64,000 nucleotides of DNA from a virus (IMGVR_UViG_3300042554_002903:2773-66772); one strand, 5' to 3'; shown: positions 2,194 through 64,000, counted from the stretch's first letter. The notes: a model not told the origin generated them from the letters alone. A program made the numbers and translations.

Positions 2194-2384
2194 AACAGAT
2201 AACAGATAAAACAAAATTAAAACAAGGTGATATTGACATCTACATCTTGTTGTTGTATATTTGCATCGCGTCTGCCGGTTGTGCTACCCGTGTGATCTCA
2301 CACGACGGACCCATCAAGAAGGTTAAGCACAGAGGTAAGGTGTACACAACCGATTCACCACGAACAATTAAAAGGGATATATGA
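2190..2384 (+). CDS. small hypothetical protein
   Basis: ATGA overlaps; one hydrophobic segment. Confidence 0.45.
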   Translation: MKQITDKTKLKQGDIDIYILLLYICIASAGCATRVISHDGPIKKVKHRGKVYTTDSPRTIKRDI

Positions 2385-2749
2385 ATACTAAACACACACC
2401 GGAACCGTGGATAATTAGCCCTATGGACCCATACTGCGTCACAACACAAGACCAGAATGAAGATATTTGCACAGTATTACTAAAGGAAGACGCAGCCCGC
2501 ATCGTCGCCTGCGTGAACGCCTGTGCAGGGCTTACAGATGAACATCTGTCCAATATTGCACGCGAAATAAATCTCGGCACAGCAGCTATGATGGAACGCG
2601 ACCGGCTGCTTAAGCTGCGCGACGAACTGCTGGCAGCCTTAGAAGAATATCAGCGCATGTATATTACCATTGAGCCAGCCGGTGGATGGCAGGGCGTTTA
2701 CGAGCAGGGAAAAGCCGCCATCACCAAAGCGAAAGGAGGTCAGTCATGA
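2381..2749 (+). CDS. hypothetical phage protein (KHTPxPW...ARIVACVNAC type)
   Basis: Common phage accessory pattern KHTPEPW, DAARIVACVNACAG, AAITKAKG. Confidence 0.7.
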   Translation: MNTKHTPEPWIISPMDPYCVTTQDQNEDICTVLLKEDAARIVACVNACAGLTDEHLSNIAREINLGTAAMMERDRLLKLRDELLAALEEYQRMYITIEPAGGWQGVYEQGKAAITKAKGGQS

Positions 2750-2773: not shown

Positions 2774-3268
2774 ATGAACAATAAACTGAGAGACATCAAG
2801 GAGATCCGGGGTGACGAGAGCAGGGTGATCGTACCCACTACTATGGTCGTGCACCATCGCCTTCTCGGTCGCAAGATGGACCACCGCTTCGCCGGCTTCA
2901 TCGTCACGGGTCAGAACAAACACGGTGATTACGTCACGCTACCGATCATACCCGAACATCAGAGAGGTGTACCGGCACGCAGGTTGAAATGCCTGGAGAT
3001 GGAAGTCACGTTCTCACCACAGGATGTAGACGGTAAGCACTACGTATGGGGCAGGGCCTTTCCGGAATTAAATTATCCACCGGGATGGGACTACGACCTC
3101 GAGAAATTGGTGATGCCCGATGGGTCTCACATCGAGATCGAGAAGATTAAAGAAGACCGGTACATGTACAGCTACGATTCTCTTCTATTCTACCACAGAA
3201 CTTCGGCACTATTTTATTTGTATGACAAAAAGAAAGCAGTCCAAACCGGAGGAATCGTTTATATCTGA
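2774..3268 (+). CDS. hypothetical protein
   Basis: 164-aa ORF. Confidence 0.6.
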   Translation: MNNKLRDIKEIRGDESRVIVPTTMVVHHRLLGRKMDHRFAGFIVTGQNKHGDYVTLPIIPEHQRGVPARRLKCLEMEVTFSPQDVDGKHYVWGRAFPELNYPPGWDYDLEKLVMPDGSHIEIEKIKEDRYMYSYDSLLFYHRTSALFYLYDKKKAVQTGGIVYI

Positions 3269-3405: not shown

Positions 3406-3801
3406 ATGAGAAATAAAAATTTCAACAAGAGGGAGAAGTTGAATAAGGAAGGGCTTGATGTCCACACTTTTCAGGTCGGTCTCCCTCAATCAGCTATGAA
3501 ATTCTACCGGGCCATGATAGAAGAGGAAGGGCTTGACAGAGTAGAGGATGTCATCGAGATCTATCTTGATGAGTATCTCAAGTCCATGGCTAACCAGGTA
3601 CGTAAGAGGGTGAGTGGTACAGGTGAGGTCAACGTAACCATCAACGTACTCGGTACCAAGTATAAGACACTCAAGTTTGTGTGCAATATGCTGGGTATGA
3701 GTGAGCCCCAATTCATCCAGTACGTAGCAATCAATATCGCCAGGCGTTATCGCAGTAAGAAAAGACTGCCGGCCAGAATCTATTTAGCTAAGGACAGATG
3801 A
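3406..3801 (+). CDS. putative DNA-binding protein (tandem ribbon-helix-helix-like)
   Basis: Two beta-alpha-alpha-like units (TFQVGLP...; VTINVLGTKYKTLKFVCNMLGMSEPQFI); basic. Confidence 0.45.
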   Translation: MRNKNFNKREKLNKEGLDVHTFQVGLPQSAMKFYRAMIEEEGLDRVEDVIEIYLDEYLKSMANQVRKRVSGTGEVNVTINVLGTKYKTLKFVCNMLGMSEPQFIQYVAINIARRYRSKKRLPARIYLAKDR

Positions 3802-4490
3802 GAGCAGTAATTTATACCCGGGTTTCCTCTGCAGAACAGGCAGACAATGGTCACTCCCTTACGGTACAGCTTGATAAGTGCAGGTCGTACTGCGTAAGTC
3901 GGGGTTGGAAAGAGGTAAGGCATTACTGCGATGCAGGTATATCTGGCCGGCGCTTCGACAACAGACCCGAGTTGCAACGCATGTTATCCGATACGGATTA
4001 CGACGTCATCGTTGTGGCCTCGCTATCCCGCTTCGGTAGGAATACCAGAGAGATACTCAACTCCGTAACCAGTAAGAAGGGTACCGACTTTGTCTTCCTC
4101 GACCTGCAGATCGATACCTCAACACCGATGGGTAAAGTGATACTCACTATGATGTCAGCACTGGCCGAGCTCGAGAGTGATCAGATCGGTATCCGAACTA
4201 AGGAAGTGATTAAGTACCGGAAGGGTAATAAGCAGAGCTACTGCGGCAATACTCCACTGGGTTACCGCAACAATGGGAACGGAGATATGGTAGTCATACC
4301 TGCAGAGATGTTCACGGTCCAGTCCATCTTCCAGATGTACAAGGATGGCAGGACATTAACCAATATAGCAACCACGCTGAACCGTAAGGGTTTGAAAGGT
4401 AAGAATGGCGGACGCTTTGCCGCCGCAACAATTAAACAAATAATTAACAATCCAATTTATGCAAACGATATCAGGGAACAATCTGAGTAA
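3798..4490 (+). CDS. serine recombinase (resolvase catalytic domain + recombinase domain)
   Basis: RAVIYTRVSS with catalytic Ser10, DAGISG, RPELQRML, SLSRFGRN, LAELES, PLGY and a C-terminal IATTLN...NPIY recombinase domain. Confidence 0.93.
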   Translation: MRAVIYTRVSSAEQADNGHSLTVQLDKCRSYCVSRGWKEVRHYCDAGISGRRFDNRPELQRMLSDTDYDVIVVASLSRFGRNTREILNSVTSKKGTDFVFLDLQIDTSTPMGKVILTMMSALAELESDQIGIRTKEVIKYRKGNKQSYCGNTPLGYRNNGNGDMVVIPAEMFTVQSIFQMYKDGRTLTNIATTLNRKGLKGKNGGRFAAATIKQIINNPIYANDIREQSE

Positions 4491-4869
4491 ATTAATTCCC
4501 TCTCTCAGGAGAGGTGACAGGAAGGCCATCTACCTCGGTAGTGGCGAGATCATGAAAATATTTGAGGAGCATGGACGGGAAGTCCTTGAGGAATTCTGCT
4601 TCCTTGCCGACGTCACGACATCACCAGCCGGTGCTAAATATCTGTCGGACTTCGGTATAAATGTTGGTGTCATGGAACGTAAGGTTGGTTACATCGGTAT
4701 TGTCCTGCGCTACGCTGATGGTACCAAGAGTGAGGCCATCCGTACTAAGGAGTGGGACAGGGTAGGACAGACCCTGCGAATCAAAGGTGTGGATGATGAC
4801 ATACAGCATGTCTCTCTTTCCGGTGTTGTATCCATTGTTGAAAACAAAACGATATACTACACCTTATGA
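4459..4869 (+). CDS. hypothetical protein
   Basis: ORF filling the gap between the recombinase and the next gene. Confidence 0.6.
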   Translation: MQTISGNNLSKLIPSLRRGDRKAIYLGSGEIMKIFEEHGREVLEEFCFLADVTTSPAGAKYLSDFGINVGVMERKVGYIGIVLRYADGTKSEAIRTKEWDRVGQTLRIKGVDDDIQHVSLSGVVSIVENKTIYYTL

Positions 4870-5381
4870 GCGAGATAGAAGCAGCAATGCAGACCCTGGC
4901 CCAGAAGGACAGGATTATAAGCAGCCTCAAGGTTGCCAACCGGAAGCTGAGAGAAGAGATCGAGAGGTTGAACATTACCATCAAGCAGGAGAGGAAGGCT
5001 CATGTCCGTGAGATAACCGAGCTCAAGAGTATTAAGATGGGAGAGTATAACCCGGAAGATCTGCACACCCTATTGCTTGTACTGTTCTCCCATACCTATG
5101 GTATTGGAGTGGAAGACATACGGTCTAAAAGCAGGAAGAGACCCATCCCGCAGATCCGGTTCTCAATTGGTCACTACATGGTTACGTCATACCCCCTTGT
5201 CGCACTTAAAAAATTAGCCAAGATCCTTGGCTATAAAGATCACACAAGTGTGATGCATGCCAGAGACAGGGTCAATGAATGGTTCGACATGCCGGTGATG
5301 TACAGAGAAGAGCTGGTCAGTTACAATAAAGTAAAGAAGCACATTGAAAACATGATTCAAACAGGAGAAATAAAGATATGA
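4866..5381 (+). CDS. coiled-coil + DnaA domain IV-like HTH DNA-binding protein
   Basis: YGIGVEDIRSKSRKRPIPQIR ... LAKILGYKDHTSVMHARDRV matches the DnaA C-terminal signature (SKxR...R...G.RDHTTV). Confidence 0.8.
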   Translation: MSEIEAAMQTLAQKDRIISSLKVANRKLREEIERLNITIKQERKAHVREITELKSIKMGEYNPEDLHTLLLVLFSHTYGIGVEDIRSKSRKRPIPQIRFSIGHYMVTSYPLVALKKLAKILGYKDHTSVMHARDRVNEWFDMPVMYREELVSYNKVKKHIENMIQTGEIKI

Positions 5382-9856: not shown

Positions 9857-10075
9857 ATGAAGAAGATAGCTATAATAATTGCATTGGGTCTCACATCATG
9901 TGGAATACCCAAGAAACCCTGGGTAGTAACCCAGAAGTATGTAGGTACGGGAGACACATGTGGTCTATCCCTACCTTTTGGAACCGCACTATACGTGTAT
10001 AAAACCAAGAGAGGTAAACAGGTTGAGTTCATTGACCTCTATGATCGTTATGAAATAGGAGATACACTGCGATGA
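9857..10075 (+). CDS. small lipoprotein
   Basis: MKKIAIIIALGLTSC lipobox-type signal. Confidence 0.65.
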   Translation: MKKIAIIIALGLTSCGIPKKPWVVTQKYVGTGDTCGLSLPFGTALYVYKTKRGKQVEFIDLYDRYEIGDTLR

Positions 10076-26800: not shown

Positions 26801-29800
26801 CTTGAGGTCTGCTCTCTGCAAGTACTCTGTTGTACGCGAGTATGCGACCGGCAAATGAGGCCATACCTTTAACCGCAGCCAGTGCGTTCACCTGCTGTGA
26901 ATCAGCCGTGGTGGGATCAAAATTAGTCAAGGCTATGATAGCTGAGGCATAGTACTCCGTCAGTCTGGCGTCGAGTATGTTCTGTGAAAAGTATTCAATT
27001 ACTGTTTTCGCGTCTATACCTAAGCCGGCGCTGTCAACAAGTTCTGCAGCCTCAGCCAGGGTATAGGTAACGGAGTAGCTACGACTGTCTGCATTAACTG
27101 CAGCTCTGAGGTGAGCCGGAGTGTTGGGGTTCTCAGCTATCTTACCCATGGCTTTAGCGTAGGGTTCACCAAATGCTGTAGTCAGTTCGTCAATATCTAT
27201 ACTGTCAAGTAGGGTATCGAAGATGACGTAATCAGAAAAAACCTCACCACTTGGTGTGTTACCTTTTTGTAAGTCCTCGATGTATTGTTCAAGTGGTACG
27301 CTCGGAGAGGCTTGTTGTAATAACTGGAACTCCTTCCTCAGTCTTACCTGGAGGTCGTGATAGACTTGAGGAGCAGTAGTGGTAGCAGTCATTACCTTCG
27401 TGTACTCCGCATCAATGTGAGCTTCAATGAAAGGTTTAAAGGATGGGTCTCCTATGAAAGCCTGAGTCATTACACCTCTAAGATATCCTTTGTCGAGCAT
27501 GCTCTTCCAGACATCTTCTTTGGTTTTCTTTGGATCATTCTTTAATTCGGTATCGAGCTCCTGGGTAATGTCTACCGGGTTTTGGTTGGCGAGAGTCTGG
27601 TAACGTATATCAGGATTCTGTGAGGTAGTGGGAGACCCATCCGTATTCACTCCTGTCACACCCACGGCTTCCGGACTTAACATCGCACCGGCTACCAGAG
27701 CTGTGTACTTCTCGAGTGTCAGGGACCGGAGTGCTTCCGGGTCCATAGTGAGACCCAATGTATTGCCGATAATTTTCCACAAATCCTTCAGCCATTTCAT
27801 CAGCGGAGAAGTTTCACGAGCAAGTAATTTCTCACCTTTGTCCGAGATCGCCCAAGTCAGAGCTTCTTCAAGCAGGGCTTCACCTTCCAGGTTGGGATAA
27901 TTTTTCTTGACCTCATCAATGTAAGCCTGACCTTCTTGTTCAATCAATTCTAAACCGCGAGCATAGAACTCAGGGTTGGTCTGTTTAATGAATGAGTTCC
28001 AGATGTGACCGAACTCGTGGATCGGGGTATCCGGACGTGCAGTGCGGGGGTCGATGTATACCTTACCGTCCTTTACGAAACCGAGTACTTTGTTTTCACC
28101 TGTGGTTTGAGTCAGACCGGCCTCACTCAGTACTCTATCTATCTCAGCAGTATCAGTAATAACTTCTGTGGGAGACCCAAAGAGAGTCTGGAAATTAGTA
28201 CGCAATCTGTCAATGAGGGGTTGGAGAGGAGTGGGTCGAGCAGGTTCGGCAACCTGATACATTGTATTCCTATCGGTATCACCGTACTCTTTTTTCAAAC
28301 TACGACTCTCGTTGTAGATCTGTCTGAACTCCGGGTCGGATAAATTCTTAACACCTTTGTAGTCGTTTATCATAGCCTCACCGGTAAACGTACCGGCATC
28401 GGTATGTAAAGCTTTACCGTCTTTGTATCCCCAGTTTCTATTTGCCGTAAAATCGTTCCAGAGAACATTATAAGAACGAATATCATCGAAGCCATATTTC
28501 CTAAGAGTATCTTGTAGCGCTGAATTGTTGTTGTCAAAATCTATAGGAGAGAATCTGGACAACTCCTTCAACATAACACCGAAAGTAGTAGTCCCGATTT
28601 CATCGCCTGTTTCGAGATCGAACACGGGAACAACATCAGAAGACTTAGCTCTGGGTACGTTATCAACAACCACATAGTTGAGACCGACTTCGTGTGATTC
28701 AGGGATAATCGACCCCGCGATGTAGTTGTCACCTTCTGCGGAGTTCTGTCTCAAACCCCTTGCGGTCTTGGCAACCTTCAATACTTTTCCATCGCCGATA
28801 TCATACACATCTCTATCACTTCCGCTTCCTATCTTCTGTAGATTTGAGAAGTCGAAACGCTCACGAGCTACTTGTTCGGTATCGTAACGGAAGCCTATCT
28901 TCTCATCTGTTCTAAGACCGAAGATAGGTTTTACATCTTCTGCTACATCAGTAGTTGAAACAGGTTGAGCTGCTAACTGGAACCTTATTTCTTCTTGCTT
29001 TTGTTCGGCAGTTTTTTCAGGTCCTGCTTGGGGCTGTCCTTCCTGATTTGCTTGGCCACTTCTGGTTTCTGGCTGTACAGGTACTTCTGTTGTTTCTTGC
29101 TTTTGAATGGCATTATTTTGAGGGCTTGTTTGTTCTATTGTGGGAGGCCCAATGACAGGGCCTTCACCAGGAGCTTCTGCACTCGGCTCTTCTGTCATGG
29201 CTCCACCGGTAGCAGGAGGTTCTTCTGCAGGAGGTTCGTTTGAGGGAGGCCGTTTCAAATCGGGTTCAGCCGGGTTGGCGGCATCTATATTCTGCAACTC
29301 AACCAGAGCTTGATCCTGCATGTTAACCGCACCTCGCGCTGCTTCTCTAACCGCTACGGGTTGACGAGGGTCTTCAGCTACACGCTCGAGTAGTGAGCGT
29401 ACTTCATCATATCTGGTACCTTGTTTGAATAGTTCGGGTGTGTTAAACGCAGATGACATGAGACCCGATGTGGTTGCAATAACCAACAACTGCCTGATGC
29501 CCTGGTCGGTATTCTCACCGAATGTTGTACGCGATGCCTTGTCCCAATCGAATCCGGATTCAACAAGTGCGTCAAGATACATACCGGAATATTCTTCAAA
29601 GGTTTCACCGGTTGTACCGAGAGCTACCTTAGTAAGGAATGTTCCGAGCTTACCCCACTTACCTGTGAATTTGTCAAGACCGAGCTTATCAAATACCATA
29701 CCGCTACCCAGGGTTTCACCCACACCGGTAGCCGCACTCTCAGATGTCGGCGCATAGACCATGGCTCCGTGAACAGCATGTGCTGTAAAGTCGGTAGCGA

Positions 29801-46678: not shown

Positions 46679-46709
46679 CAAAGTTAGCGAAAAAATAAGT
46701 GAGGCCCAA
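46679..46709 (-). promoter_or_regulatory. portal promoter with its -33 element inside the repeated motif
   Basis: Minus strand reads TTGGGCCTCAC-N12-TAACTTTG-TAGGAA-ATG. Confidence 0.7.
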
Positions 46710-47394
46710 ATCGGAGCGGCGGGCCTGAAGGTGTTTATACCGAGAAGTAGGTTTAATGCGGCGGGCCTGAAAGCCTTTTTGAATTTTTAGACCGGACTTT
46801 TGAGAATATGGACCTGCGTTTGCTGCGCTATTCTGTTCACCGGTTCGCTCGACAAAAAATTTTTGCGAAATCCGCTTAAATATATTTATTTCTGTTCTCT
46901 TGGTGGTAATGATTGAGGCGATCAAGCACACTTCCTCTAATCCTAAAGGTCACTTTAAAAAAAGGCCCTTTAAGTTAGAAGTGTGCTTAATTGGTCTCCA
47001 GTACGGTTAACGACATCGGCAGACCAAGCAATCAGAGTAAGCGCTGCGTTCTCTGACCTGTGAACACCTTTGAGGAACAGCCCTCGTTTTTACAGCTTGT
47101 TTCACTTTACTTCTAAGCTTTCGGTTTATGTAAAATCCCCCAGTAACCGACAGCTACCATATCTTTCAATGGTAACCTTTTACAATTCCAACCCTGGTGC
47201 CAACCTTCTGGTTTCTCGTCTGCTGGAAAGGGACCACCTAAGTGATCGGTGCAAAGGTACAAAGAACGAAAAGAAAAGTCAACTTCTTTTTTAAAGCAAC
47301 CACCCGCCATCTTGCGATGACGAGTGGCCGGATTTAGGGAGAAGTATTACAAAGATAATACATTTGAAAACAAAATGCAAATTTGAAAAAGTAC

Positions 47395-47425
47395 TTGACT
47401 TCTGTTGGGTCTCACATTACCTTTG
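47395..47425 (+). promoter_or_regulatory. sigma-70 promoter with the motif in its spacer
   Basis: TTGACT 47395, TGGGTCTCAC 47406, TACCTTTG 47418. Confidence 0.85.
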
Positions 47426-47439
47426 TACGAATTTACAAT

Positions 47440-47631
47440 ATGCATATAAAATCAAAATACATTAATGCGGTAGAAGATGCTATTGATTTCATCCAACATA
47501 ATATTGATGGGGTATCTGATGAGCAAAACGAAAAGGAAACACTTAATGTACTTCGAGAGCTTGTTAAAAAAATGCAAGAAAGTCAGCACAAGAAATTGGT
47601 CAGTTACTTTGTCCGCAAAAACGGAAGATAA
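47440..47631 (+). CDS. hypothetical protein
   Basis: ATG downstream of the promoter. Confidence 0.55.
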   Translation: MHIKSKYINAVEDAIDFIQHNIDGVSDEQNEKETLNVLRELVKKMQESQHKKLVSYFVRKNGR

Positions 47632-47647
47632 TTGTTTATAAAACAAA

Positions 47648-47923: not shown

Positions 47924-47937
47924 TCTGGATATTACAA

Positions 47938-48312
47938 TCACTCCAAAATCTTGATGGTCACGTCGACGTAATCCTCACCTTTTGGTACCAGTACTTTCTT
48001 AATATGCATGGACCATATTGACTTATCATTGAAGCCGTACTTCTTCTGTAGTACATCCAGTGTTGGTTTAATAGGGTTGTCGATATCGGAAGCACCATTG
48101 GAGAATCCGAATTCCAACCAGACCTCAAGCTTATCTGCTTTCTTCAGGTCCTTCTTCCAGGAAGGTAGGTTGTACATCACCTCGATTTCCCAGTTTTTAT
48201 ACTCCGGTGTTTTAAAGCGCCGGCCCTGCCATGCTTTATTCACACTCAGTGGTTTTATATTCACCTTGCTATGCAGCAGGATTGCCGGTATCTTACTTTT
48301 TCTAAGAGTCAT
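47938..48312 (-). CDS. RusA-like Holliday junction resolvase
   Basis: KPLSVNKAWQGRRFKT, SDIDNPIKPTLDVL, FNDKSI. Confidence 0.85.
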   Translation of the reverse strand: MTLRKSKIPAILLHSKVNIKPLSVNKAWQGRRFKTPEYKNWEIEVMYNLPSWKKDLKKADKLEVWLEFGFSNGASDIDNPIKPTLDVLQKKYGFNDKSIWSMHIKKVLVPKGEDYVDVTIKILE

Positions 48313-48724
48313 ATCTTAATTTCTTTAGCAATTCATTGGGTCTCACATCATCTCTCAACTCCAAATCCCTGAACATTATATCCTCAACACTCACCCCATA
48401 GAACTCAGAAGCTATTATAGCTATCTTAGTCGAGAACATAAATGTTTCGCTATCGGTAAGGAAGTCACGGACACCGACATCAATCGTGATACCCATGTGT
48501 TCGATTATATTATCGCAGGTCATCTGCCGGCCCATCACCAATTTGAGATGGTGCAGATTCTTACGTACCCTCTGGCTTATTGTTCTGAGCTGCTCTTTAA
48601 CATTCTCGTTAAAGTATAATCTTTTCGCATTTGATATCCTGGCCTTACGTACAGGTATGGACGGCTCCTTCTTTTTTATTTCGCTGATCTCTGCCAGCAG
48701 TATGTCTTCTCGTGATAACGCCAT
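48302..48724 (-). CDS. XRE/Cro-like HTH transcription regulator
   Basis: VRKNLHHLK...IIEHMGI...IASEFYGVSVEDIMFRDL resembles the XRE C-terminal signature; transcribed from a divergent promoter. Confidence 0.55.
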   Translation of the reverse strand: MALSREDILLAEISEIKKKEPSIPVRKARISNAKRLYFNENVKEQLRTISQRVRKNLHHLKLVMGRQMTCDNIIEHMGITIDVGVRDFLTDSETFMFSTKIAIIASEFYGVSVEDIMFRDLELRDDVRPNELLKKLRYDS

Positions 48725-48742: not shown

Positions 48743-48793
48743 CAAAGTTAAATAAAAAATGCTTGACTTTCATTCGGTCTCACTTTATCTTTG
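48743..48793. promoter_or_regulatory. back-to-back promoters with an operator-like motif
   Basis: Leftward TAACTTTG (48750-48743); rightward TTGACT 48763, CGGTCTCAC 48775, TATCTTTG 48786. Confidence 0.8.
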
Positions 48794-54445: not shown

Positions 54446-54476
54446 TTGACTTTCATTCGGTCTCACACTATCTTTG
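54446..54476 (+). promoter_or_regulatory. sigma-70 promoter with the motif in its spacer
   Basis: TTGACT 54446, CGGTCTCAC 54458, TATCTTTG 54469, ATG 54482. Confidence 0.85.
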
Positions 54477-54871: not shown

Positions 54872-54898
54872 CTTTTTTTGGGTCTCACATTATCTTTG
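54868..54898 (+). promoter_or_regulatory. sigma-70 promoter with the motif in its spacer
   Basis: TTGACT 54868, TGGGTCTCAC 54879, TATCTTTG 54891, ATG 54904. Confidence 0.85.
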
Positions 54899-55697: not shown

Positions 55698-55769
55698 ACC
55701 GGAGTGGCGGAAATGGAACGCCCAACACGGCAAATGTTGGACATGCAGGTTCGAGTCCTGTCTCCGGTG
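55698..55769 (+). tRNA. non-canonical tRNA-Cys(GCA)-like
   Basis: Acceptor ACCGGAG/CTCCGGT; D-arm TGGCGGAAATGGAACGC; anticodon stem CAACA/TGTTG with loop CGGCAAA; T-arm GCAGG-TTCGAGT-CCTGT; G33 instead of U33; no encoded CCA. Confidence 0.6.
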
Positions 55770-55980
55770 CAACGAGTAAGGAATACTCAGCAGTCTTTGA
55801 TCCAAGACTCATTTAACAATGGATTCGCTTCAACCAAACAGCGTGAATGGTGGTTCGGGAGATCAATGGAGCCAGACACCTCCTCTCTCGCAGTCTGACT
55901 AATTAAGCAGTAAGATGCGCAGGGTTATTGAATAGCAAGAAACCGGGAATATCTACTCACCTGTAATTCCAAGGTGGGGC

Positions 55981-56079
55981 GGTCATGAGCGTAATGAGGA
56001 GTGGCCATCCGAGTCCTCTATAAGGTAGAGCTCCTTATGGAGGTAGCAGATTGTGGGTTCGAATCCCACCATGACCCCA
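55981..56079 (+). ncRNA. tRNA-like element with an extended central hairpin
   Basis: Acceptor GGTCATG/CATGACC; perfect T-arm GTGGG-TTCGAAT-CCCAC; no normal D or anticodon arms. Confidence 0.5.
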
Positions 56080-56224
56080 ACCACACAGTACGTAAGTACC
56101 TTTTGCGGGTGGACCAATACTGACATCGAATGTCCAAAGTTCACCGTCAGACTACGGAGCCGGGGAACCGAGCCGAGAGCAGTATCCGTTAAGATTGGTT
56201 GTGTGGGAGACCCAACGGGGTCGT

Positions 56225-56388
56225 ATCGGAGTGGCGGAATTGGCAGACGCTAATTGAAATGCACATTATAGAGTAAGATAGATACCAGCTAAGTAGTGTC
56301 TTATGCCTTCGGGTACTGGGTCTTAAATAATGGAGATTGTAGAAATACAAGTATGTTACTCTTACAGGTTCAAATCCTGTCTCCGGTA
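56225..56388 (+). ncRNA. tRNA-like RNA with a ~110-nt structured insert
   Basis: ATCGGAG/CTCCGGT acceptor; Leu-type D-arm TGGCGGAATTGGCAGACGC; T-arm ACAGG-TTCAAAT-CCTGT. Confidence 0.6.
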
Positions 56389-56421
56389 CGATCCCAAATG
56401 GGTCTCACTTTAAAAAACAAG

Positions 56422-57567: not shown

Positions 57568-57735
57568 CTAACTTTTTTCTTTAGGTGACTTATCTCTTCT
57601 ACAGAACCGGATAAAGATCCAGGCGGGTCCGAGATCTATTGAGAAGATGTACTTCCAATCTACATTGTAGCTCGTCTTACTTATTCCAAAGCCTACTTCA
57701 AACTGGGACCAGTCATAACCGAAGCTGATATTCAT
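57568..57735 (-). CDS. 55-aa hypothetical protein (not in ORF track)
   Basis: MNISFGYDWSQFEVGFGISK...; its ATG comes from GTGAGGCCCAATG overlapping the upstream stop. Confidence 0.5.
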   Translation of the reverse strand: MNISFGYDWSQFEVGFGISKTSYNVDWKYIFSIDLGPAWIFIRFCRRDKSPKEKS

Positions 57736-58013
57736 TGGGCCTCACTTTCATTAAACCAAGCCACGACCTGATCAAGACTGATGCCCTCAACAGTAAGAGA
57801 GCGCAGAGAGGATGGACTCACTTCAATCACCACCCTACGAGAAGCATCTCCATGAACAGAGTAAGCCAGTACAAAGGACTGCGTCCGTACCCACACACCT
57901 CTGACCAGATTATTGGAAACGGTCTCAATCCTTTGACCACCGGATCTGGCAATAATAGCGTTCTGCTCCTTGATCACATAGGAGACCACGTCTTCGATGT
58001 TTGAAAATTTCAT
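57732..58013 (-). CDS. hypothetical protein
   Basis: 93-aa ORF. Confidence 0.55.
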   Translation of the reverse strand: MKFSNIEDVVSYVIKEQNAIIARSGGQRIETVSNNLVRGVWVRTQSFVLAYSVHGDASRRVVIEVSPSSLRSLTVEGISLDQVVAWFNESEAQ

Positions 58014-58681: not shown

Positions 58682-59120
58682 ATTCAAATATACAAATATT
58701 GTAGGTATAATACAAATGGGATGTCGTTTTTCCCGAGGAAACACTTTTTGGTGAGGAAGTAAGGGTGCTGCCTAAAAAAAGGCCCGGGGGTAGAAATGAG
58801 CCGGCCCCCTTTTTTTACCGGGGGGTGTGGGAAGAGGATGGCTGGGAAAGAATGCCTGGAAATAAAAAGTCCTGCGGGAGTGAGTGGTAAACGATATAGA
58901 TCATGGCAGTTCGGCTCCGGTTAAAAATAGCCCCGGCCCGATTCGTTCAGCCCGTCACACAATACGCGACGCAATACAGCGAGCCTACATACATACACAT
59001 TACGAATTGAAACCCGTTAACAATCGAACCACCATTTACATCTAATTAATTGATTTAAAACAAGTTAGCGAAGCGCAGCCAGCGAATAAAACTTAAATAA
59101 TTACTGTAAGTAACCCCCTC

Positions 59121-59410
59121 TAACTCATTGATTACCAACGACTTACACCAGCGATTCGATGAAAATTTTTACCCGATTTTTGAATAAAAAAAGGGAAACT
59201 ACAGAAACGTTTTTTATATCCGCACCTTAAAAACCGCGCTATCATTGGCTTATAAGGAAACTCATTGAAAACCAACACTTTACATACATAGCAAAAAAAG
59301 ATATAAAGCATTGAAAACCACCACTTTACACTATTTCACATTTTACATATATAAGGAGTAAACAAAACAAGTAAACCCGAAAAAATTAAAAGCCTTGCTA
59401 CCATTGGCTT
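59121..59410. repeat. imperfect direct repeats in an AT-rich non-coding region
   Basis: CATTGA(AA/TT)ACCA..ACTT(T)ACA at 59121, 59259 and 59309; GCTA(T/C)CATTGGCTT at 59238 and 59397. Confidence 0.7.
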
Positions 59411-59519
59411 TAGTCGTTTGTAAACACTTATCTTTAATTTTTTATAAAAATAATTTGCTTTACCCATTGCCATATCAATCGGCTGTATTAATATTGCAGC
59501 ACCATTTAATATTTACACA

Positions 59520-60137: not shown

Positions 60138-60688
60138 GGCGCGACGGTGCAACGTGCTGAAATAAGGCACTGACTGCGAAAGTATTGCACCGTGCAAAAT
60201 TAGAGTATTTATACTCTTGTTTTACGTTCTTTACAAATACCGTTTCAGAGTGCCTGAATTAAGTTTCACGGGCAAAGAATGCACAAGGCTACAAGGTTTT
60301 AATATCTGCAAAGTGAGTTAAAGTGTAACGGTTAAGGTAATGCCATTCTATTAATGCCATTGTAAGGAGTAAGAAAGACCGTGTGACGGGGTCTGAATCA
60401 GCGATTCGCAAACCGTAATTTATTAAAGAGTCTTATATAAGTCAGGTTGATGAAATTAGGACAGGCGAATTAAAATAGAACGCTAAAGGCATAACGGCAC
60501 TGCAATACCCCGTAATAATGACAGCACGTTGAATAGGCTAACTTTTATGCCTGATTCAGTCAGCCGTCCGCCCTTAATTCATGTGACAGGGCAGCGCAAA
60601 ATAAGATATAAATAAGCGCAATAAAAGCAAAAGGAGCTTTTAAAAATGTAAACAAAAAAATAAGAGTCTATATTATACCATTACATTT

Positions 60689-60720
60689 GGGGGCTGGCTT
60701 TAATTAGTCAGTCCCTTTTT
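60689..60720 (+). terminator. intrinsic terminator
   Basis: GGGGCTGGCT...AGTCAGTCCC followed by TTTTT. Confidence 0.75.
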
Positions 60721-60924
60721 GTGTGGTATCTCTACTACTCATGTGAACCATACATGAGGTGCAATATATGTGAGACCCATCGCAAAAGTTAAAACGTGTA
60801 TGCGTTTACTTTGCGCCCGTCTCATAGGTTGTGCAGGTTTGCCCGTTATGCTTGACACCATTGCGGACGGTTTCAATTGCCGTGCAGCCACTACGCCCAT
60901 CACTCAAATGTGGTGGGCTTTTTT

Positions 60925-61113
60925 ATGCAGAAAAATATAACAATCGAGATTCCAGAAAGTGTGGATATCTCACACATGGTGCAAGTCATTGCTTTTGCTT
61001 GTCTATACTCAGATCATGTTACACCTGACGAGTATGAAGTTCTTTGTGACATACTTAAACAATTAACTGATGAGCCTGTGGAAATACCTAATGCTATGTT
61101 TGAAAATAAGTGA
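60925..61113 (+). CDS. hypothetical protein
   Basis: MQKNITIEIPES...; its stop is the TGA of the motif. Confidence 0.6.
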   Translation: MQKNITIEIPESVDISHMVQVIAFACLYSDHVTPDEYEVLCDILKQLTDEPVEIPNAMFENK

Positions 61114-61119
61114 GACCCA

Positions 61120-61311
61120 ATGCGATTAATAAAATTAACCAATGACGGCCCAGATAAAACATGTAATGTATGGGTCAATCCTGCTGAAATTGTGTGGATT
61201 CGTAAACATTCTGAATCCGTTACTCTTTTGTGTATGACCTTTGGACTTAAGGTCTATGTTCAGGAGACTCCAGAAGAGGTGTGTGCTTTAATAAGCTTTA
61301 ATAATAAGTGA
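61120..61311 (+). CDS. FlbD-like small phage protein
   Basis: MRLIKLT...VWVNPAEIVWI...VQETPEEV; both ends lie in motif junctions. Confidence 0.65.
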   Translation: MRLIKLTNDGPDKTCNVWVNPAEIVWIRKHSESVTLLCMTFGLKVYVQETPEEVCALISFNNK

Positions 61312-61317
61312 GACCCA

Positions 61318-61497
61318 ATGCAAGTAGTAAATATAACCGTAAACGTACCCGAAGGTACGGACATGGACCACATGTTTGAAGCCGTGTGGGGTGCCATGTG
61401 TCTGAGTACTAAGGTAACACAACAAGAGACGGACTTCGTACTGAGTCTGATTACTAAAGTGGATGCAGAACTAAAGTTAAATAAAAATCCGAAATGA
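61318..61497 (+). CDS. 59-aa hypothetical protein (not in ORF track)
   Basis: MQVVNITVNVPEGTDMDHM...; starts at the motif ATG; resembles 60925-61113. Confidence 0.6.
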   Translation: MQVVNITVNVPEGTDMDHMFEAVWGAMCLSTKVTQQETDFVLSLITKVDAELKLNKNPK

Positions 61498-61718
61498 AAG
61501 GTGAATTATTCCAATTTGAAGACCCAAAAGGTAACGAAAGCGGTCTGTTTTACACAGAAGATAGTGTGTTATTTAGTGGTACTTTACTGCCCGAATGGTA
61601 CAGACTGTACACAGCTTCTGAAGAGTATGACATCGACGGTGAAGACGGCTTTGTGGACTTTGTAGCCGAGCGTGGCTACAGTATTGAACGTGTGTATATC
61701 AATCCGATTTGTATATGA
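61494..61718 (+). CDS. acidic hypothetical protein
   Basis: ATGA overlaps. Confidence 0.6.
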   Translation: MKGELFQFEDPKGNESGLFYTEDSVLFSGTLLPEWYRLYTASEEYDIDGEDGFVDFVAERGYSIERVYINPICI

Positions 61719-61813
61719 AAATCTTTAACGCCATCGGTAACGCACTGGGAGTAGTGTGTGCCGTCTTGTTTATCCTCATAGCTTTACGTATCCTATGGGG
61801 TTTATTAATGTGA
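61715..61813 (+). CDS. 32-aa membrane peptide (not in ORF track)
   Basis: MKIFNAIGNALGVVCAVLFILIALRILWGLLM; stop in the motif. Confidence 0.5.
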   Translation: MKIFNAIGNALGVVCAVLFILIALRILWGLLM

Positions 61814-61830
61814 GACCCAATGTAAAACGC

Positions 61831-62172
61831 ATGTATAACAAAGAAAATTTAATCAGTTTCCTGTCAGCCAAGGCTGCACAGAAGAACGTGGACATCAATG
61901 ATGTACCAGGTTGGGTGTATGACGCAGTAATTGCGTATCTCGGTTGGTTAGAACCGCTTACTAACTTATCCAAAGTTGTGAGTAATGACCCGTGCGAACT
62001 ACCATTTATACTTGAATGGTTGGAAAATACAGACTTTGATGACGGTTCTGGAAGTTTACCTGCGCATGGTACTACATTCACTACCAAAGACGGTAATGAA
62101 ATCGAGATAGTAATGTGGGAACCCCATGTGTACTGGGAGCTTAACCAATTGGTTGAAGAAGTTTATAATTAA
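61831..62172 (+). CDS. hypothetical protein
   Basis: Start re-called at MYNKENL. Confidence 0.6.
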   Translation: MYNKENLISFLSAKAAQKNVDINDVPGWVYDAVIAYLGWLEPLTNLSKVVSNDPCELPFILEWLENTDFDDGSGSLPAHGTTFTTKDGNEIEIVMWEPHVYWELNQLVEEVYN

Positions 62173-62177
62173 ACAAT

Positions 62178-62387
62178 ATGATAACAATAATTTCAATCGT
62201 AGTGATATGCATCATATTGGTGGTGTCCTACTTTCTTGCTGTTCTCGTTTGCGGAGAACCTCTCTATGACGGACTTGAATACATCATTGGTTATATTCTG
62301 TTAGGTCTACTCTTATTTTGCCTGTTTGGTATTCTTTTCTGGGCTTGCTTCATGTTTGTACGTGAAGTATTAGTTACTTTAATGTGA
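62178..62387 (+). CDS. two-TM membrane protein
   Basis: Hydrophobic; stop in the motif. Confidence 0.6.
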   Translation: MITIISIVVICIILVVSYFLAVLVCGEPLYDGLEYIIGYILLGLLLFCLFGILFWACFMFVREVLVTLM

Positions 62388-62393
62388 GACCCA

Positions 62394-62771
62394 ATGGAAA
62401 ATTTATTAACTGAAACTCTGTCTGAGCTTTTACGCCGCAATAAAAAGGAAAGTGATATCAGGTGGGTGGGAACTCGTTCTCATAAAATCACATGGGAAAA
62501 CTTTAAAGAGTGTGCCGATATCGAATACGATGAGTCATCATCAATACAAGAGGTAGCCTATGACCTTGTCATTGTTGGTGATGGATGGTGGTTAGAGAGG
62601 TACGAGTGGGATAATTACGGCTCAGAGGCATGGCGATTTGTCAAAGTACCTGTAGAACCAGATGAGACACTACATGTGGACTCCCTGACAAGAGACCAAG
62701 CAGTAAGATTAGGGCGTGACCTCTCTTATTTTGAAAGTCATGACTTAGAAGCGTTAAATGGTATTAAGTGA
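62394..62771 (+). CDS. hypothetical phage protein
   Basis: NLLTET...DIRWVG...DLVIVGDGWWLER; both ends lie in motif junctions. Confidence 0.7.
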   Translation: MENLLTETLSELLRRNKKESDIRWVGTRSHKITWENFKECADIEYDESSSIQEVAYDLVIVGDGWWLERYEWDNYGSEAWRFVKVPVEPDETLHVDSLTRDQAVRLGRDLSYFESHDLEALNGIK

Positions 62772-62777
62772 GACCCA

Positions 62778-62930
62778 ATGAACTTGAAAAAATTACGTGA
62801 GCGCCGCAAGACGTATGCAATTGCTGCGCTGTACGGTACATTAGGTATCGTACTGTGTGTTAACACACCCGCAATCGGCCTGGCTGTATTGTGTGGTGTA
62901 CTTACATTGCTTATTTGTGAGACACGATGA
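62778..62930 (+). CDS. 50-aa membrane peptide (not in ORF track)
   Basis: MNLKKLRERRKTYAIAALYG...; starts at the motif ATG and overlaps the next gene by ATGA. Confidence 0.55.
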   Translation: MNLKKLRERRKTYAIAALYGTLGIVLCVNTPAIGLAVLCGVLTLLICETR

Positions 62931-63412
62931 GAGACCCAATCAATATGATTATGAGTATACCATTTTTAATCCGCAGCAAGAGCACAGTACCTGTGTCTCA
63001 ACGTCTGAATGACTGGATAATTGAGCGCACTAAGCATATCAAACATGAGGTAGTGAGTTACGAATTCAATGACTCCTTCGAAGAATTAAAGCGTACCTAC
63101 ACTGAGACCGGTGTAATTATTGTCAATGATTTACATGGTGACAAAACGATATACGGTGACCGCAGGGTTAACGCATTGGCTCGGGTGTGGCATGACTATC
63201 ATCATGTCATGCTTGATACCCCCTTTGACCAATTAGGTGAGACCCGTACTGCATTCTCTCAGATTGCAGAACTACCTGATGACTGGCATTTTGAACGCAT
63301 GCTTGTGCTCTGTGATATCATAGGTCAGACCACATATCATAGCGTACATGGTTGCTTTGTGGATGACCAACGTAAATTTACGGCTGCACTTATGACAACA
63401 GGTAGGATATGA
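62927..63412 (+). CDS. hypothetical phage protein (WHDxxH motif)
   Basis: KTIYGDRRVNALARVWHDYHH...GE...DIIGQ..Y...F. Confidence 0.7.
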   Translation: MRDPINMIMSIPFLIRSKSTVPVSQRLNDWIIERTKHIKHEVVSYEFNDSFEELKRTYTETGVIIVNDLHGDKTIYGDRRVNALARVWHDYHHVMLDTPFDQLGETRTAFSQIAELPDDWHFERMLVLCDIIGQTTYHSVHGCFVDDQRKFTAALMTTGRI

Positions 63413-63547
63413 ACATAGTCTTCCAAATAATCAGCGCTGCACTGTATGTGTATGCTCTGTATCAAGATGGGTGTGAGGCCCGTCCGTATTTCATCTCGGC
63501 CTACCTCGTACTGATGGTGGGCTTTGTAATTAAAACCAATTTTAAAA

Positions 63548-64000
63548 ATGAAAAAATATAAATTAAGTAAGACCGATTCGATTGAGGTCGATGGTCGTAA
63601 GCTGTACCGCATCATTGCGACACACTCGTTTGGTGATGTAACCAAGGGTGAGACCGGTGGTTACGTGGAGAAAGAAGAGAACCTCAGTCATGAGGGTGAC
63701 GCATGGGTCTGCGGTAATGCACGGGTCTCCGGTAATGCACGGGTCAGCGATAATGCATGGGTCTGCGGTAATGCACGGGTCTCCGGTAATGCACGGGTCT
63801 ACGATAATGCACTGGTCAGCGGTAATGCACAGGTCTACGGTGATGCACAGGTCTGGGGTAATGCACAGGTCTGGGGTAATGCACAGGTCTGGGGTAATGC
63901 ACAGGTCTGGGGTAATGCACGGGTCTGGGGTAATGCACAGGTCAGCGATAATGCACGGGTCAGCGGTAATGCACGGGTCAGCGATAATGCATGGGTCTGC
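63548..64000 (+). CDS. hexapeptide-repeat (left-handed beta-helix) phage protein, truncated by the window end
   Basis: MKKYKLS...LYRIIA..FGDV.KGETGGYVEKEENLS then (G/D)NA(R/W/Q)V(S/C/W/Y) repeats. Confidence 0.85.
   Translation, partial: MKKYKLSKTDSIEVDGRKLYRIIATHSFGDVTKGETGGYVEKEENLSHEGDAWVCGNARVSGNARVSDNAWVCGNARVSGNARVYDNALVSGNAQVYGDAQVWGNAQVWGNAQVWGNAQVWGNARVWGNAQVSDNARVSGNARVSDNAWVC
63696..64000 (+). repeat. 18-bp tandem repeat
   Basis: Repeated g(g/a)taatgcac(g/a)ggtc(tgg/agc/tcc/tac) units. Confidence 0.9.

What the first reader, a model, noticed from the sequence alone, without database searches (positions are those of the whole stretch)
61110..62780. Stop-motif-start gene cassettes: gTGAgacccaATG is the entire intergenic region at five junctions
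SEEN: at 61110, 61308, 61810, 62384 and 62768 the 13-mer GTGAGACCCAATG supplies the TGA stop of the upstream ORF (ends 61113, 61311, 61813, 62387, 62771) and the next ATG (61120, 61318, 62394, 62778). At 61820 the ATG is followed by TAA and the gene starts at 61831. A sixth case on the minus strand gives the start at 57735. The genes are small and unrelated, and several are membrane peptides. INFERENCE: either a modular array in which crossover at the 13-mer swaps whole genes while keeping stop, start and translational coupling intact (integron/PeSL-like), or stoperator sites placed at gene boundaries.
Basis: partly seen in the sequence, partly recalled or inferred. Interest (0 to 1): 0.82.

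Follow-up and report, generated by a model that had tools for sequence, protein, structure and literature searches.

The report
Genome-wide oriented 13-base phage site
The repeated stop-motif-start junction is real, but it is only the compact-gene version of a directional 13-15 base site scattered some 70 times over this lake-water phage genome, most likely a docking site for a phage DNA-binding protein that controls transcription rather than a gene-swapping joint.

Summary
GTGAGACCCAATG is exact at 61110, 61308, 61810, 62384 and 62768, giving the TGA stop and the next ATG as described.

It is not a junction-specific element. The window is nearly all of a 66.8-kb phage genome with Bacteroidota-type promoters and a crAss-type muzzle protein. 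GTGAGACCCA is that genome's most over-represented 10-mer: 24 copies, or 34 GTGAGRCCCA against 0.23 expected. A matrix built from the sites finds 74 matches against 0-2 in shuffles.

The site is asymmetric, about AWGTGAGVCCCAWYS, with a free middle base. It is selected at the DNA level: antisense copies lie in all three frames and use rare codons.

Orientation is set module by module. It is sense at gene boundaries in the promoter-poor small-gene array (13 of 15) and antisense in late genes (25 of 29).

Best reading (about 0.4): binding sites for a monomeric phage DNA-binding protein that acts on transcription in one direction, like stoperators. A DnaA-domain-IV-like protein (4866-5381) is the candidate binder.

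Integron or PeSL membership is not supported. However, a sister lineage with a different junction repeat does show cassette gain or loss at its junctions. No close relative of this phage could be fetched.

The parts
61110..61122 (+). Junction site. TGA 61111-13 ends ORF 60925..61113; ATG 61120 starts ORF 61120..61311.
61308..61320 (+). Junction site. TGA 61309-11 ends 61120..61311; ATG 61318 starts 61318..61497.
61810..61822 (+). Junction site. TGA 61811-13 ends the 32-34-aa hydrophobic ORF. The motif's ATG is followed by TAA, and the real start is ATG 61831.
62384..62396 (+). Junction site. TGA ends 62178..62387; ATG 62394 starts 62394..62771.
62768..62780 (+). Junction site. TGA ends 62394..62771; ATG 62778 starts 62778..62930.
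60770..60782 (+). Sense-orientation site GTGAGACCCATCG in non-coding DNA ahead of the array, between two terminator-like hairpins (60689-60716 and 60895-60918).
62929..62941 (+). Variant site GAGAGACCCAATC inside the first codons (M-R-D-P-I) of gene 62927..63412.
57733..57745 (-). Variant GTGAGGCCCAATG at the junction of minus-strand ORFs 57732..58013 and 57568..57735. The stop is the ATGA overlap, not the motif's TGA.
48334..48346 (-). Exact 13-mer near the 3' end of minus-strand ORF 48302..48724, read through as V-R-P-N. Its ATG opens a 3-codon mini-ORF, and the RusA gene starts 24 nt further on.
9882..9894 (-). Exact 13-mer antisense inside plus-strand gene 9857..10075, where it encodes A-L-G-L-T of a signal-peptide-like N-terminus.
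27748..27760 (+). Exact 13-mer antisense inside the 2567-aa minus-strand gene. It is one of 25 antisense sites in the late module 13.4-46.7 kb.
47403..47415 (-). Site lying in the spacer of a plus-strand Bacteroidota-type promoter (TTGACT..GGGTCTCAC..TACCTTTG). Paralogous promoters with the same layout lie at 48771-48783, 54454-54466 and 54876-54888.
46699..46711 (+). Site (GTGAGGCCCAAAT) overlapping the -33 TTTG of the portal-gene promoter on the minus strand.
4866..5381 (+). 171-aa protein with a DnaA domain IV-like helix-turn-helix (KDHTSVMHA). It is the candidate binder of the site and is absent from the motif-less relative G001.
3798..4490 (+). 230-aa serine recombinase, conserved (43% identity) in relative G001, which lacks the motif. 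It is therefore unlikely to be the site's partner.
60925..64000 (+). Array of tightly packed small genes (overlaps or spacers of 6 nt or less). It contains no TTG-N17-22-TAnnTTTG promoter and continues across the contig end into genome bases 1-2507.

Best explanation
The 13-mer is the junction-adapted form of a genome-wide, asymmetric site of 13-15 bp, roughly A-W-G-T-G-A-G-V-C-C-C-A-W-Y-S with a free middle base. The site is maintained by selection on the DNA itself.

The most likely mechanism is that a phage-encoded monomeric DNA-binding protein occupies these sites and acts on transcription in a direction-dependent way, as cluster A mycobacteriophage repressors do at operators and stoperators. 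The candidate is the DnaA-domain-IV-like 171-aa protein at 4866-5381.

In the promoter-poor array of small genes (60.7 kb, across the contig end, to genome base about 2500) the sites point with transcription and sit at almost every second gene boundary. There they would stop or throttle RNA polymerase once the protein is made.

In the replication, structural and lysis modules the sites point against the genes. Sense transcription would pass, while antisense or read-through transcription would be stopped, or the protein would serve a second, orientation-free role.

The stop and start codons come for free. The site contains TGA, and its degenerate 3' end (W-Y-S) can be written ATG. In an array where every junction is an overlap or a spacer of 6 nt or less, embedding the site between two genes is the cheapest way to fit it in.

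Shown: the site, its copy number, its asymmetry, DNA-level selection and module-wise orientation. Inferred: protein binding, the identity of the binder and the effect on transcription.
For: Enrichment:
- GAGACCC is the top 7-mer and GTGAGACCCA the top 10-mer of the genome, at 24 copies.
- GTGAGRCCCA occurs 34 times against a mean of 0.23 (max 2) in 30 Markov shuffles.
- A 17-column matrix gives 74 sites at 14 bits or more against 0-2 in 10 shuffles.

Asymmetry and a bipartite shape:
- The logo from 78 GAGRCCC sites shows information from -4 to +10.
- The middle base runs A 43, G 16, C 13, T 3. That fits a protein reading two sub-sites and argues against RNA-RNA pairing.

DNA-level selection:
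- Antisense copies fall in all three frames, 14, 10 and 6.
- 4 of 4 Gly-Ser-His tripeptides are written GGGTCTCAC (0.03 expected; GGG is 6% of Gly codons).
- 9 of 12 Gly-Leu-Thr are written GGYCTCACN (1.9 expected).

Orientation by module:
- Small-gene array: 13 sense, 2 antisense.
- Late genes: 25 antisense, 4 sense.
- Plus-strand block 48.8-57.5 kb: 10 antisense, 4 sense.
- Replication block, sites of 18 bits or more: 3 antisense, 0 sense.

Other support:
- Five sites overlap Bacteroidota-type promoters, an operator-like placement.
- The array holds no internal TTG-N17-22-TAnnTTTG promoter, so it looks like one long unit where serial blocks would work.
- The candidate binder matches Pfam Bac_DnaA_C at 38 bits (cut-off 31.5) and keeps the DHT(S/T)V recognition-helix signature in alignments to DnaA structures.
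- Relative G001 lacks both this gene and the motif. This is a single comparison.
Against: - No binding, expression or transcript-end data exist. Everything about function is inference.
- In cluster A phages all sites share one orientation relative to transcription. Here two thirds are antisense and lie inside coding sequence, which the stoperator model does not require. My explanations for that (an antisense barrier or a second role) are ad hoc.
- In the replication block, weak and strong sites together are 6 sense and 6 antisense.
- Three sense sites lie in minus-strand genes of the 47-58.5 kb region. One of these genes neighbours a RusA gene, which is not an obvious early gene. A pure strand-by-segment rule fits 45 of 49 strong sites at least as well, and that would point to replication rather than transcription.
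- The phage shows no repressor-integrase lysogeny module beyond a short serine recombinase.
- The link between binder and site rests on one presence/absence comparison and on a recalled similarity between the CACA end of the DnaA box and the reverse complement of the site.
- Attempts to find other genomes with this protein failed.
Confidence: 0.4

Rival explanations
1. The site is a strand-specific signal read during replication or DNA processing: a primase or helicase signal, a nicking site like those of T5 or phiKMV-type phages, or a Chi-like or polar barrier site. Its orientation then follows fork direction, not transcription.
For: - A four-segment strand rule fits 45 of 49 sites of 18 bits or more, without needing gene classes. 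The segments are + from 60.7 kb to genome base about 1200, - to 9.9 kb, + from 15 to 46.7 kb, and - from 47.4 to 58.5 kb.
- Minus-strand genes inside the fourth segment carry the site on the same strand as their plus-strand neighbours.
- The phage encodes a T7 gp4-like primase-helicase. The reverse complement contains GGGTC, which I recall as a strong T7 primase site.
- Two switch points fall in gene-poor DNA, at 46.7-47.4 kb and 58.7-60.9 kb.
Against: - Known primase signals are about 3-5 nt and Chi sites 5-8 nt (recalled), not 13-15 nt.
- The T of GGGTC is the free middle base, A>G>C on the other strand. A GTC-type primase rule is therefore not kept.
- Site density varies fivefold, from one per roughly 340 bp in the array to one per 1.3-3 kb elsewhere. 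A replication signal has no reason to sit at each boundary of small genes.
- Three of the four switch points coincide with switches of gene direction, so the strand rule is not independent of transcription.
- GC skew simply follows gene strand.
- Two origins and two termini would be needed in 66.8 kb.
Confidence: 0.15
2. The site is a promoter or initiation signal for a phage-specific RNA polymerase. In the small-gene array it would give leaderless or near-leaderless early mRNAs starting at the embedded ATG. Elsewhere it would fire antisense into middle and late genes and hold them down early in infection.
For: - The array has no host-type promoter inside it, and the only repeated element there is this site, placed directly at start codons.
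- A copy at 60770 is the only conserved element between two terminator-like hairpins upstream of the first array gene.
- One directional rule (transcription leaves the site in the GTGAG-to-CCCA direction) explains both sense and antisense classes.
- In the crAss-like phage phi14:2, early genes are transcribed by a virion polymerase while middle and late genes use host-type promoters (bioRxiv 10.1101/2020.03.07.982082, passages read).
- This phage has a crAss-type muzzle protein and a 2567-aa virion-type protein.
Against: - No RNA polymerase was found. The 2567-aa protein has no Pfam hit, no DFDxD motif, and only weak atlas neighbours of the 'large polyvalent protein' kind.
- The phi14:2 study found no common motif upstream of early transcripts.
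- About 45 antisense promoters inside coding sequence would be without precedent.
- Half of the array genes have no site in front of them.
- A back-to-back pair at genome bases 485-505 would fire antisense into an array gene.
Confidence: 0.12
3. The sense copies are an RNA-level translation element, like the start-associated sequences of cluster K mycobacteriophages or a target of a RegA/RegB-like factor. The element would promote or regulate re-initiation at TGA-N6-ATG in a host that does not use Shine-Dalgarno pairing.
For: - 7 junction copies keep the ATG at a fixed distance from the TGA.
- No Shine-Dalgarno sequence precedes genes in this phage.
- The motif is unpaired in 4 of 6 minimum-free-energy folds and no fold is unusually stable (z from -1.6 to +0.9).
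- SAS are 13-bp asymmetric repeats 3-7 bp before start codons of non-structural genes, sometimes containing the upstream stop (PMC3203893, passages read).
- A relative has its own conserved junction with a strong SD-like GGAGG before ATG at 8 consecutive small genes.
Against: - It cannot explain the majority of copies, which are antisense, intragenic and under DNA-level selection.
- At 61810 and 48334 the embedded ATG opens only a 1- or 3-codon mini-ORF. At 48334 and 57733 the motif's TGA is out of frame.
- The site has no plausible pairing to the 16S tail beyond GUGA. This is my own inspection; no rRNA was examined.
Confidence: 0.1
4. One reading: the 13-mer is a recombination linker at which whole small genes are gained, lost or swapped while stop, start and coupling are kept.
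For: - In the sister lineage, L048 and L049 are identical at 2963 of 2964 and 7983 of 7986 flanking bases.
- Between those flanks they carry 1737 bp (six further junction repeats) against 252 bp (one different gene).
- The right breakpoint is at the junction repeat and the left one is 27 nt after a repeat.
- Homology of L052 to L048 begins within the last junction repeat.
- Paralogues 60925-61113 and 61318-61497 flank a third gene in this array.
- The phage has a RecE/YqaJ-type exonuclease.
- Cluster O phages show gene indels between copies of a 17-bp repeat (PMC4351075, passages read).
Against: - Thirteen bases are short for homologous exchange. The sister-lineage repeat is 28 nt and differs in sequence.
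- Most copies are not at junctions and are kept antisense within essential genes, where recombination between them would be harmful.
- No site-specific recombinase pairs with the site.
- No relative close enough to test breakpoints in this lineage could be fetched.
- Exchange at the sites may well happen as a by-product without being the reason they exist.
Confidence: 0.08

Closest known systems
Stoperators and operators of cluster A mycobacteriophages (L5 gp71-type repressor)
   Same: - An asymmetric site of about 13 bp present in tens of copies.
- Sites lie in short intergenic spaces that can include stop and start codons, and also inside promoters.
- Orientation is strongly tied to the direction of transcription.
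- The site shape fits a monomer reading two sub-sites (PMC9283540; here).
   Different: - The host phylum is Bacteroidota-type, and the phage is a crAss-related podovirus-like genome with no clear lysogeny module.
- Two thirds of the copies lie inside coding sequence.
- Orientation is sense in one module and antisense in the others, rather than uniform.
- No homologue of the cluster A repressor was looked for or found. The candidate binder here is a DnaA-domain-IV-like protein.
- Function is untested.
Start-associated sequences (SAS) of cluster K mycobacteriophages
   Same: - A 13-bp asymmetric repeat.
- It lies a few bases before ATG starts of non-structural genes.
- It sometimes contains the upstream stop codon.
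- It is found in one orientation in that region.
- Its function is still unknown (PMC3203893).
   Different: - SAS carry the Shine-Dalgarno core and are confined to gene starts in the non-structural half of the genome.
- This site has no SD core.
- Its ATG is part of the site itself.
- Most copies are antisense within genes all over the genome.
17-bp repeats of cluster O mycobacteriophages
   Same: - More than 30 copies spread over the genome.
- About a third lie within coding regions, and copies are denser among small non-structural genes.
- Indels of genes lie between copies.
- A DNA-binding regulator is suspected (PMC4351075).
   Different: - The cluster O repeat is a palindrome, implying dimer binding, with no meaningful orientation.
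- This site is asymmetric and strongly oriented.
PeSL cassettes of T4-type phages and integron attC cassettes (recalled; no paper read here)
   Same: Small, unrelated, often membrane-type early genes arranged in a compact array with a repeated sequence at the boundaries.
   Different: - No stem-loop.
- No early promoter in the repeat.
- No dyad symmetry.
- No tyrosine integrase among the proteins scanned.
- The repeat is not confined to the array.

Membership tests
Stoperator/operator system (cluster A mycobacteriophage type) | Asymmetric site of about 13 bp present in more than 20 copies over the genome | tested here: met
   34 GTGAGRCCCA against 0.23 expected. 74 matrix sites against 0-2 in shuffles. 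The logo is asymmetric.
Stoperator/operator system (cluster A mycobacteriophage type) | Sites lie in short intergenic spaces and in promoters | tested here: inconclusive
   About a dozen sites lie at gene junctions and 5 in promoters. However, most of the 74 lie inside coding sequence.
Stoperator/operator system (cluster A mycobacteriophage type) | One orientation relative to the direction of transcription throughout the genome | tested here: not met
   Small-gene array: 13 sense, 2 antisense. Late module: 25 antisense, 4 sense. Block 48.8-57.5 kb: 10 antisense, 4 sense. The sites are oriented, but by module and not uniformly.
Stoperator/operator system (cluster A mycobacteriophage type) | Cognate monomeric repressor that binds the site and blocks elongation only in one orientation | not testable with these tools
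   Only a candidate exists: the DnaA-IV-like protein at 4866-5381. No DNA-protein modelling or assay was available.
Start-associated sequences (cluster K type) | Repeat lies a few bases upstream of start codons, in one orientation, restricted to non-structural genes | tested here: not met
   True for 7-9 copies, but about 45 copies are antisense and intragenic, including in structural genes.
Start-associated sequences (cluster K type) | Contains the Shine-Dalgarno core | tested here: not met
   No GGAG or AGGAG in the site. Genes of this phage lack SD sequences altogether.
Integron cassette array | Tyrosine integrase (IntI) next to the array | tested here: not met
   Pfam and PHROG scans of about 60 proteins found only a serine recombinase at 3798-4490. 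Not every small ORF was scanned.
Integron cassette array | attC-type imperfect inverted repeats that fold as hairpins at cassette ends | tested here: not met
   The 13-mer has no dyad symmetry, and the six junction folds share no structure (z from -1.6 to +0.9).
PeSL-type mobile regulatory cassettes | Early promoter plus stem-loop flanking each cassette | tested here: not met
   The array contains no host-type promoter, sigma-70-like matches are not enriched (18 against 13.7), and there is no common stem-loop.
Activator box of middle promoters (MotA-box-like) | Box at a fixed distance upstream of the -10/-7 element | tested here: not met
   3 of 91 GGGNCTC sites have TAnnTTTG within 55 nt downstream, against a background of 2.3%. 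The spacings are 2, 2 and 12 nt.

The most novel reading that the evidence does not exclude
A virulent, crAss-related phage of Bacteroidota organises its whole transcription programme with one polar DNA site. A small stand-alone DnaA-domain-IV protein would bind about 70 asymmetric sites whose orientation is set module by module. The same protein would then shut off the promoter-poor early gene array (sites facing the polymerase) and insulate middle and late genes from antisense or read-through transcription (sites facing the other way). The early-array sites would double as the stop and start codons of the genes, and incidentally as crossover points for gene shuffling.
Probability: 0.25. Interest if true: 0.8.

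Novelty: new variant of a known kind. Interest (0 to 1): 0.6.

Why it matters
Short oriented repeats that organise phage genomes (stoperators, SAS, cluster O repeats) are known almost only from actinobacteriophages. A full-text search that paired 'stoperator' or 'start associated sequences' with crAss-like, Flavobacterium or Bacteroidetes phages returned no paper joining them, other than the cluster K paper itself.

This case has three useful properties:
- The selection on DNA is unusually clear, shown by rare codons and over-used tripeptides.
- The orientation flips between gene modules.
- A candidate binder comes from a family of small DnaA-domain-IV proteins with no known role. An exhaustive search found 159 distant representatives.

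If the site is a polar transcription barrier, it would offer a handle on how crAss-related phages time their genes, which is poorly understood. It would also provide a compact orientation-dependent regulatory part for Bacteroidota.

The sister-lineage comparison also gives a clean natural example of gene-cassette turnover at conserved junction repeats in near-identical phages.

Tried and rejected
Searches for close relatives that found nothing useful:
- DNA search of phage records with the array: no match.
- Protein-guided scans with the 161-aa array protein: none.
- Scans with the portal in viral, metagenome and genome collections: only relatives at about 50% identity.
- Scan of viral contigs for AGTGAGACCCAATG: 40 stretches with a single hit each, which is chance level.

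Tools that failed or were closed:
Population variants in the four lake or freshwater runs found were therefore not seen.

Ideas rejected:
- A peptide motif as the cause. Antisense copies fall in three frames.
- RNA-RNA pairing between early starts and late mRNAs. The middle base is free.
- A MotA-like activator box.
- An analogous genome-wide motif in relatives. There is none in G001, L046 or L047, and 0 of 37 loci L048-L084 hold GTGAG[ACG]CCCA. The CAACCTTTGGTTG repeat of those relatives is a coding KQPKV repeat.
- A virion RNA polymerase in the 2567-aa protein. No evidence was found.
- The serine recombinase as partner of the site. It is conserved in motif-less G001.
- TGA read-through fusing the in-frame ORFs. 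All long genes are intact under the standard code and the only tRNA found is Cys-GCA. This was not tested further.

The link between binder and site could not be tested in other genomes. A literature search for the motif letters returned only unrelated primer sequences (listing only). Rfam at gathering threshold gave no match in the window.
Full report
**Observation**

The 13-mer GTGAGACCCAATG occurs exactly at 61110, 61308, 61810, 62384 and 62768 on the plus strand. It also occurs at 27748 (+), 9882 (-) and 48334 (-). With up to two mismatches there are 36 matches against 1.31 expected.

Reading the sequence and ORFs confirms that the motif's TGA ends the upstream ORF at all five array junctions. 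Its ATG opens the next ORF at four of them. At 61820 the ATG is followed by TAA and the gene starts at 61831.

The minus-strand case at 57733-57745 is a one-mismatch variant in which the motif is read through and the stop lies in an ATGA overlap. Two of the 'unrelated' genes, 60925-61113 and 61318-61497, are paralogues.

**Context**

The window is bases 2773-66772 of a single 66,772-bp contig. It is a tailed-phage genome with these features:
- a family A DNA polymerase, a T7 gp4-like primase-helicase and a portal;
- a RecE/YqaJ exonuclease, an endolysin, RusA and a 230-aa serine recombinase;
- a 1399-aa protein matching the crAss-virus muzzle family, and a 2567-aa protein of unknown nature.

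Genes have no Shine-Dalgarno sequences. Many are preceded by TAnnTTTG with an upstream TTG. I recall this as the Bacteroidota promoter consensus. The sequence is held by lake and freshwater metagenome runs.

The last ORF runs off the contig end and continues in frame at the contig start. The small-gene array at 60.9-64.0 kb therefore continues into genome bases 1-2507.

**The motif is genome-wide**

- GAGACCC is the commonest 7-mer and GTGAGACCCA the commonest 10-mer of the genome, at 24 copies.
- GTGAGRCCCA occurs 34 times against 0.23 expected.
- Aligning 78 GAGRCCC sites gives an asymmetric logo, about A-W-G-T-G-A-G-R-C-C-C-A-W-Y-S.
- The middle base is free: A 43, G 16, C 13, T 3.
- A matrix built from these sites finds 74 matches of 14 bits or more against 0-2 in ten shuffles. 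The matrix was trained on sites with the fixed core, so the count shows enrichment rather than independent discovery.

**Selection acts on the DNA**

Intragenic antisense copies fall in all three frames, 14, 10 and 6. All 4 Gly-Ser-His tripeptides in genes of 450 nt or more are written GGGTCTCAC, where 0.03 were expected; GGG is only 6% of Gly codons. Nine of 12 Gly-Leu-Thr are written GGYCTCACN, where 1.9 were expected. Both tripeptides are themselves over-used.

The free middle base argues against RNA-RNA pairing and for a protein that reads two sub-sites.

**Orientation**

| Module | Sense | Antisense |
|---|---|---|
| Small-gene array (60.7 kb, across the contig end, to genome base about 2500) | 13 | 2 |
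| Late, minus-strand module (13.4-46.7 kb) | 4 | 25 |
| Plus-strand block 48.8-57.5 kb | 4 | 10 |
| Replication block, all sites | 6 | 6 |
| Replication block, sites of 18 bits or more | 0 | 3 |
| Minus-strand genes of the 47-58.5 kb region | 3 | 0 |

A rule by gene module and a rule by DNA strand in four segments (45 of 49 strong sites) fit about equally well. Three of the four switch points coincide with switches of gene direction.

**Why stop and start are in the site**

The site contains TGA, and its degenerate 3' end W-Y-S can be written ATG. Every junction in the array is an overlap or a spacer of 6 nt or less. Embedding the site between two genes is therefore the cheapest placement.

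Several exceptions show that the site does not exist in order to supply the codons:
- the mini-ORFs after the ATG at 61820 and 48334;
- the out-of-frame TGA at 48334 and 57733;
- the copy inside the first codons of gene 62927;
- the non-coding copy at 60770.

In antisense copies the preferred 3' end is A-[A/T]-C-[C/G]. The junction copies depart from that preference to make ATG.

**Other placements**

Four paralogous plus-strand promoters carry the reverse complement in their spacer, in the form TTGACT..GGGTCTCAC..TAYCTTTG. The portal promoter's -33 TTTG overlaps a copy.

The reverse complement is not a general activator box. Only 3 of 91 copies have a -7 element downstream, which is the background rate.

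A back-to-back pair, ATGGGTCTCA-N7-TGAGACCCAT, lies in an intergenic gap at genome bases 485-505.

The junctions share no RNA fold. The array has no internal host-type promoter and is preceded by two terminator-like hairpins with a site between them.

**Candidate binder**

The 171-aa product of 4866-5381 matches Pfam Bac_DnaA_C above threshold. It aligns to DnaA domain IV of solved structures and includes KDHTSVMHA against DnaA's RDHTTVIHA.

DnaA domain IV binds an asymmetric 9-mer as a monomer. The box is TTATNCACA with a free middle base, and the reverse complement of the present site ends in CTCACA in 41 of 78 copies. The DnaA box sequence is recalled, not checked here.

The gene is absent from relative G001, which also lacks the motif. 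That is a single comparison.

The protein has one 93% homologue in the word-indexed search and 159 distant small relatives in the exhaustive search. No genome context could be fetched for any of them.

**Relatives**

Only genomes with about 50% portal identity were reachable: G001, L046 and L047. None has the motif, and none has an analogous genome-wide word.

G001 does have its own conserved junction in the syntenic small-gene array. Eight copies of (GGAGGTAAC)AATGAGCAACAATAAACAA encode a GGNNEQQ tail overlapped with an MSNNKQ start on otherwise unrelated small proteins.

Contig L049 is identical to G001 at 2963 of 2964 and 7983 of 7986 flanking bases, yet it carries 252 bp where G001 has 1737 bp of array. 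The right breakpoint lies at the junction repeat and the left one 27 nt after a repeat.

In L052 the homologue of the last array gene starts at its own ATG without the MSNNKQ prefix. Junction repeats in this phage family therefore spread and mark sites of cassette turnover. A single relic of the G001-type junction lies in the window at 2735-2766.

**Interpretation**

The best-supported statement, which I hold with high confidence, is that this is a genome-wide, oriented, DNA-level site of protein-binding type.

The mechanism I think most likely, at about 0.4, is stoperator-like: a monomeric phage protein whose bound site acts on RNA polymerase in one direction only. It would face the polymerase in the promoter-poor array and face away from it elsewhere.

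The main rivals are:
- a strand-specific replication or nicking signal (0.15);
- a promoter for an unidentified phage polymerase (0.12);
- an RNA-level start element like SAS (0.10);
- a recombination linker as the primary function (0.08).

**Comparison with known systems**

It works most like cluster A stoperators (PMC9283540), but fails their uniform-orientation feature. It resembles SAS (PMC3203893) only in its junction copies. It resembles the cluster O repeats (PMC4351075) in distribution but not in symmetry. It is not an integron or PeSL system.

A full-text search joining these terms with crAss-like, Flavobacterium or Bacteroidetes phages found no such report.

Noticed in passing
window 56220-56395 and 55975-56085: Two tRNA-like stretches that ARAGORN did not call; it called only tRNA-Cys at 55698-55770. 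The first has tRNA-like 5' and 3' halves (GGAGTGGCGGAATTGG ... GGTTCAAATCCTGTCTCCGGTA) separated by about 100 nt, as if it carried an intron or insert. The second has a 7-bp acceptor-like stem, a GGGTTCGAATCCCAC T-arm and a CCA end in about 100 nt. Rfam at gathering threshold reported nothing in the window, not even the tRNA.
   Followed up: partly
L044:6273-8259 (G001 46273-48259); L048 against L049: A relative phage has eight consecutive small genes joined by a conserved 28-nt junction with a strong SD-like GGAGG, although other genes of these phages lack Shine-Dalgarno sequences. A contig with near-identical flanks has one different gene in place of the block.
   Followed up: yes
window 2735-2766: Single copy of the relative's junction type: GGAGGT-N5-ATGAGCAAC. 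It forms a 6-codon mini-ORF (MSNTTK) overlapping the stop of 2381..2749, just before gene 2774..3268.
   Followed up: partly
window 3798-4490 (and 4459-4869): A 230-aa serine recombinase with a resolvase domain plus only the start of the 'Recombinase' domain. It is conserved at the same length (43% identity) in G001, next to the small-gene array in both phages. Its role in an apparently virulent phage is unknown.
   Followed up: partly
genome bases 485-505 (L085:485-505; just left of the window): A perfect back-to-back pair of the site, ATGGGTCTCA-N7-TGAGACCCAT, in an intergenic gap of the small-gene region. It could bind two monomers or form a 10-bp hairpin.
   Followed up: no
window 63548-64000, continuing at genome bases 1-54: A gene with YdcK-type beta-solenoid repeats (GNA[RQ]V[SWY]) runs off the contig end and continues in frame at the contig start. 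The assembly probably broke inside this repeat, so some units may be missing.
   Followed up: partly
window 46720-47400 and 58750-59500, 60140-60900: Three stretches of 0.7-1.2 kb without convincing ORFs. The first contains a repeated GCGGCGGGCCTGAA. The last contains two terminator-like hairpins, which might bound a small RNA of about 140-200 nt that carries a copy of the site.
   Followed up: no
L063, L057, L059 (viral contigs related to G001): A similar word, TGAGACCCCA, recurs: 8 GAGACCC in the 12.7 kb of L063. There it is mostly in frame as Glu-Thr-Pro in (S)ETP(S/T) peptides, so it may be a peptide motif rather than a DNA site.
   Followed up: partly
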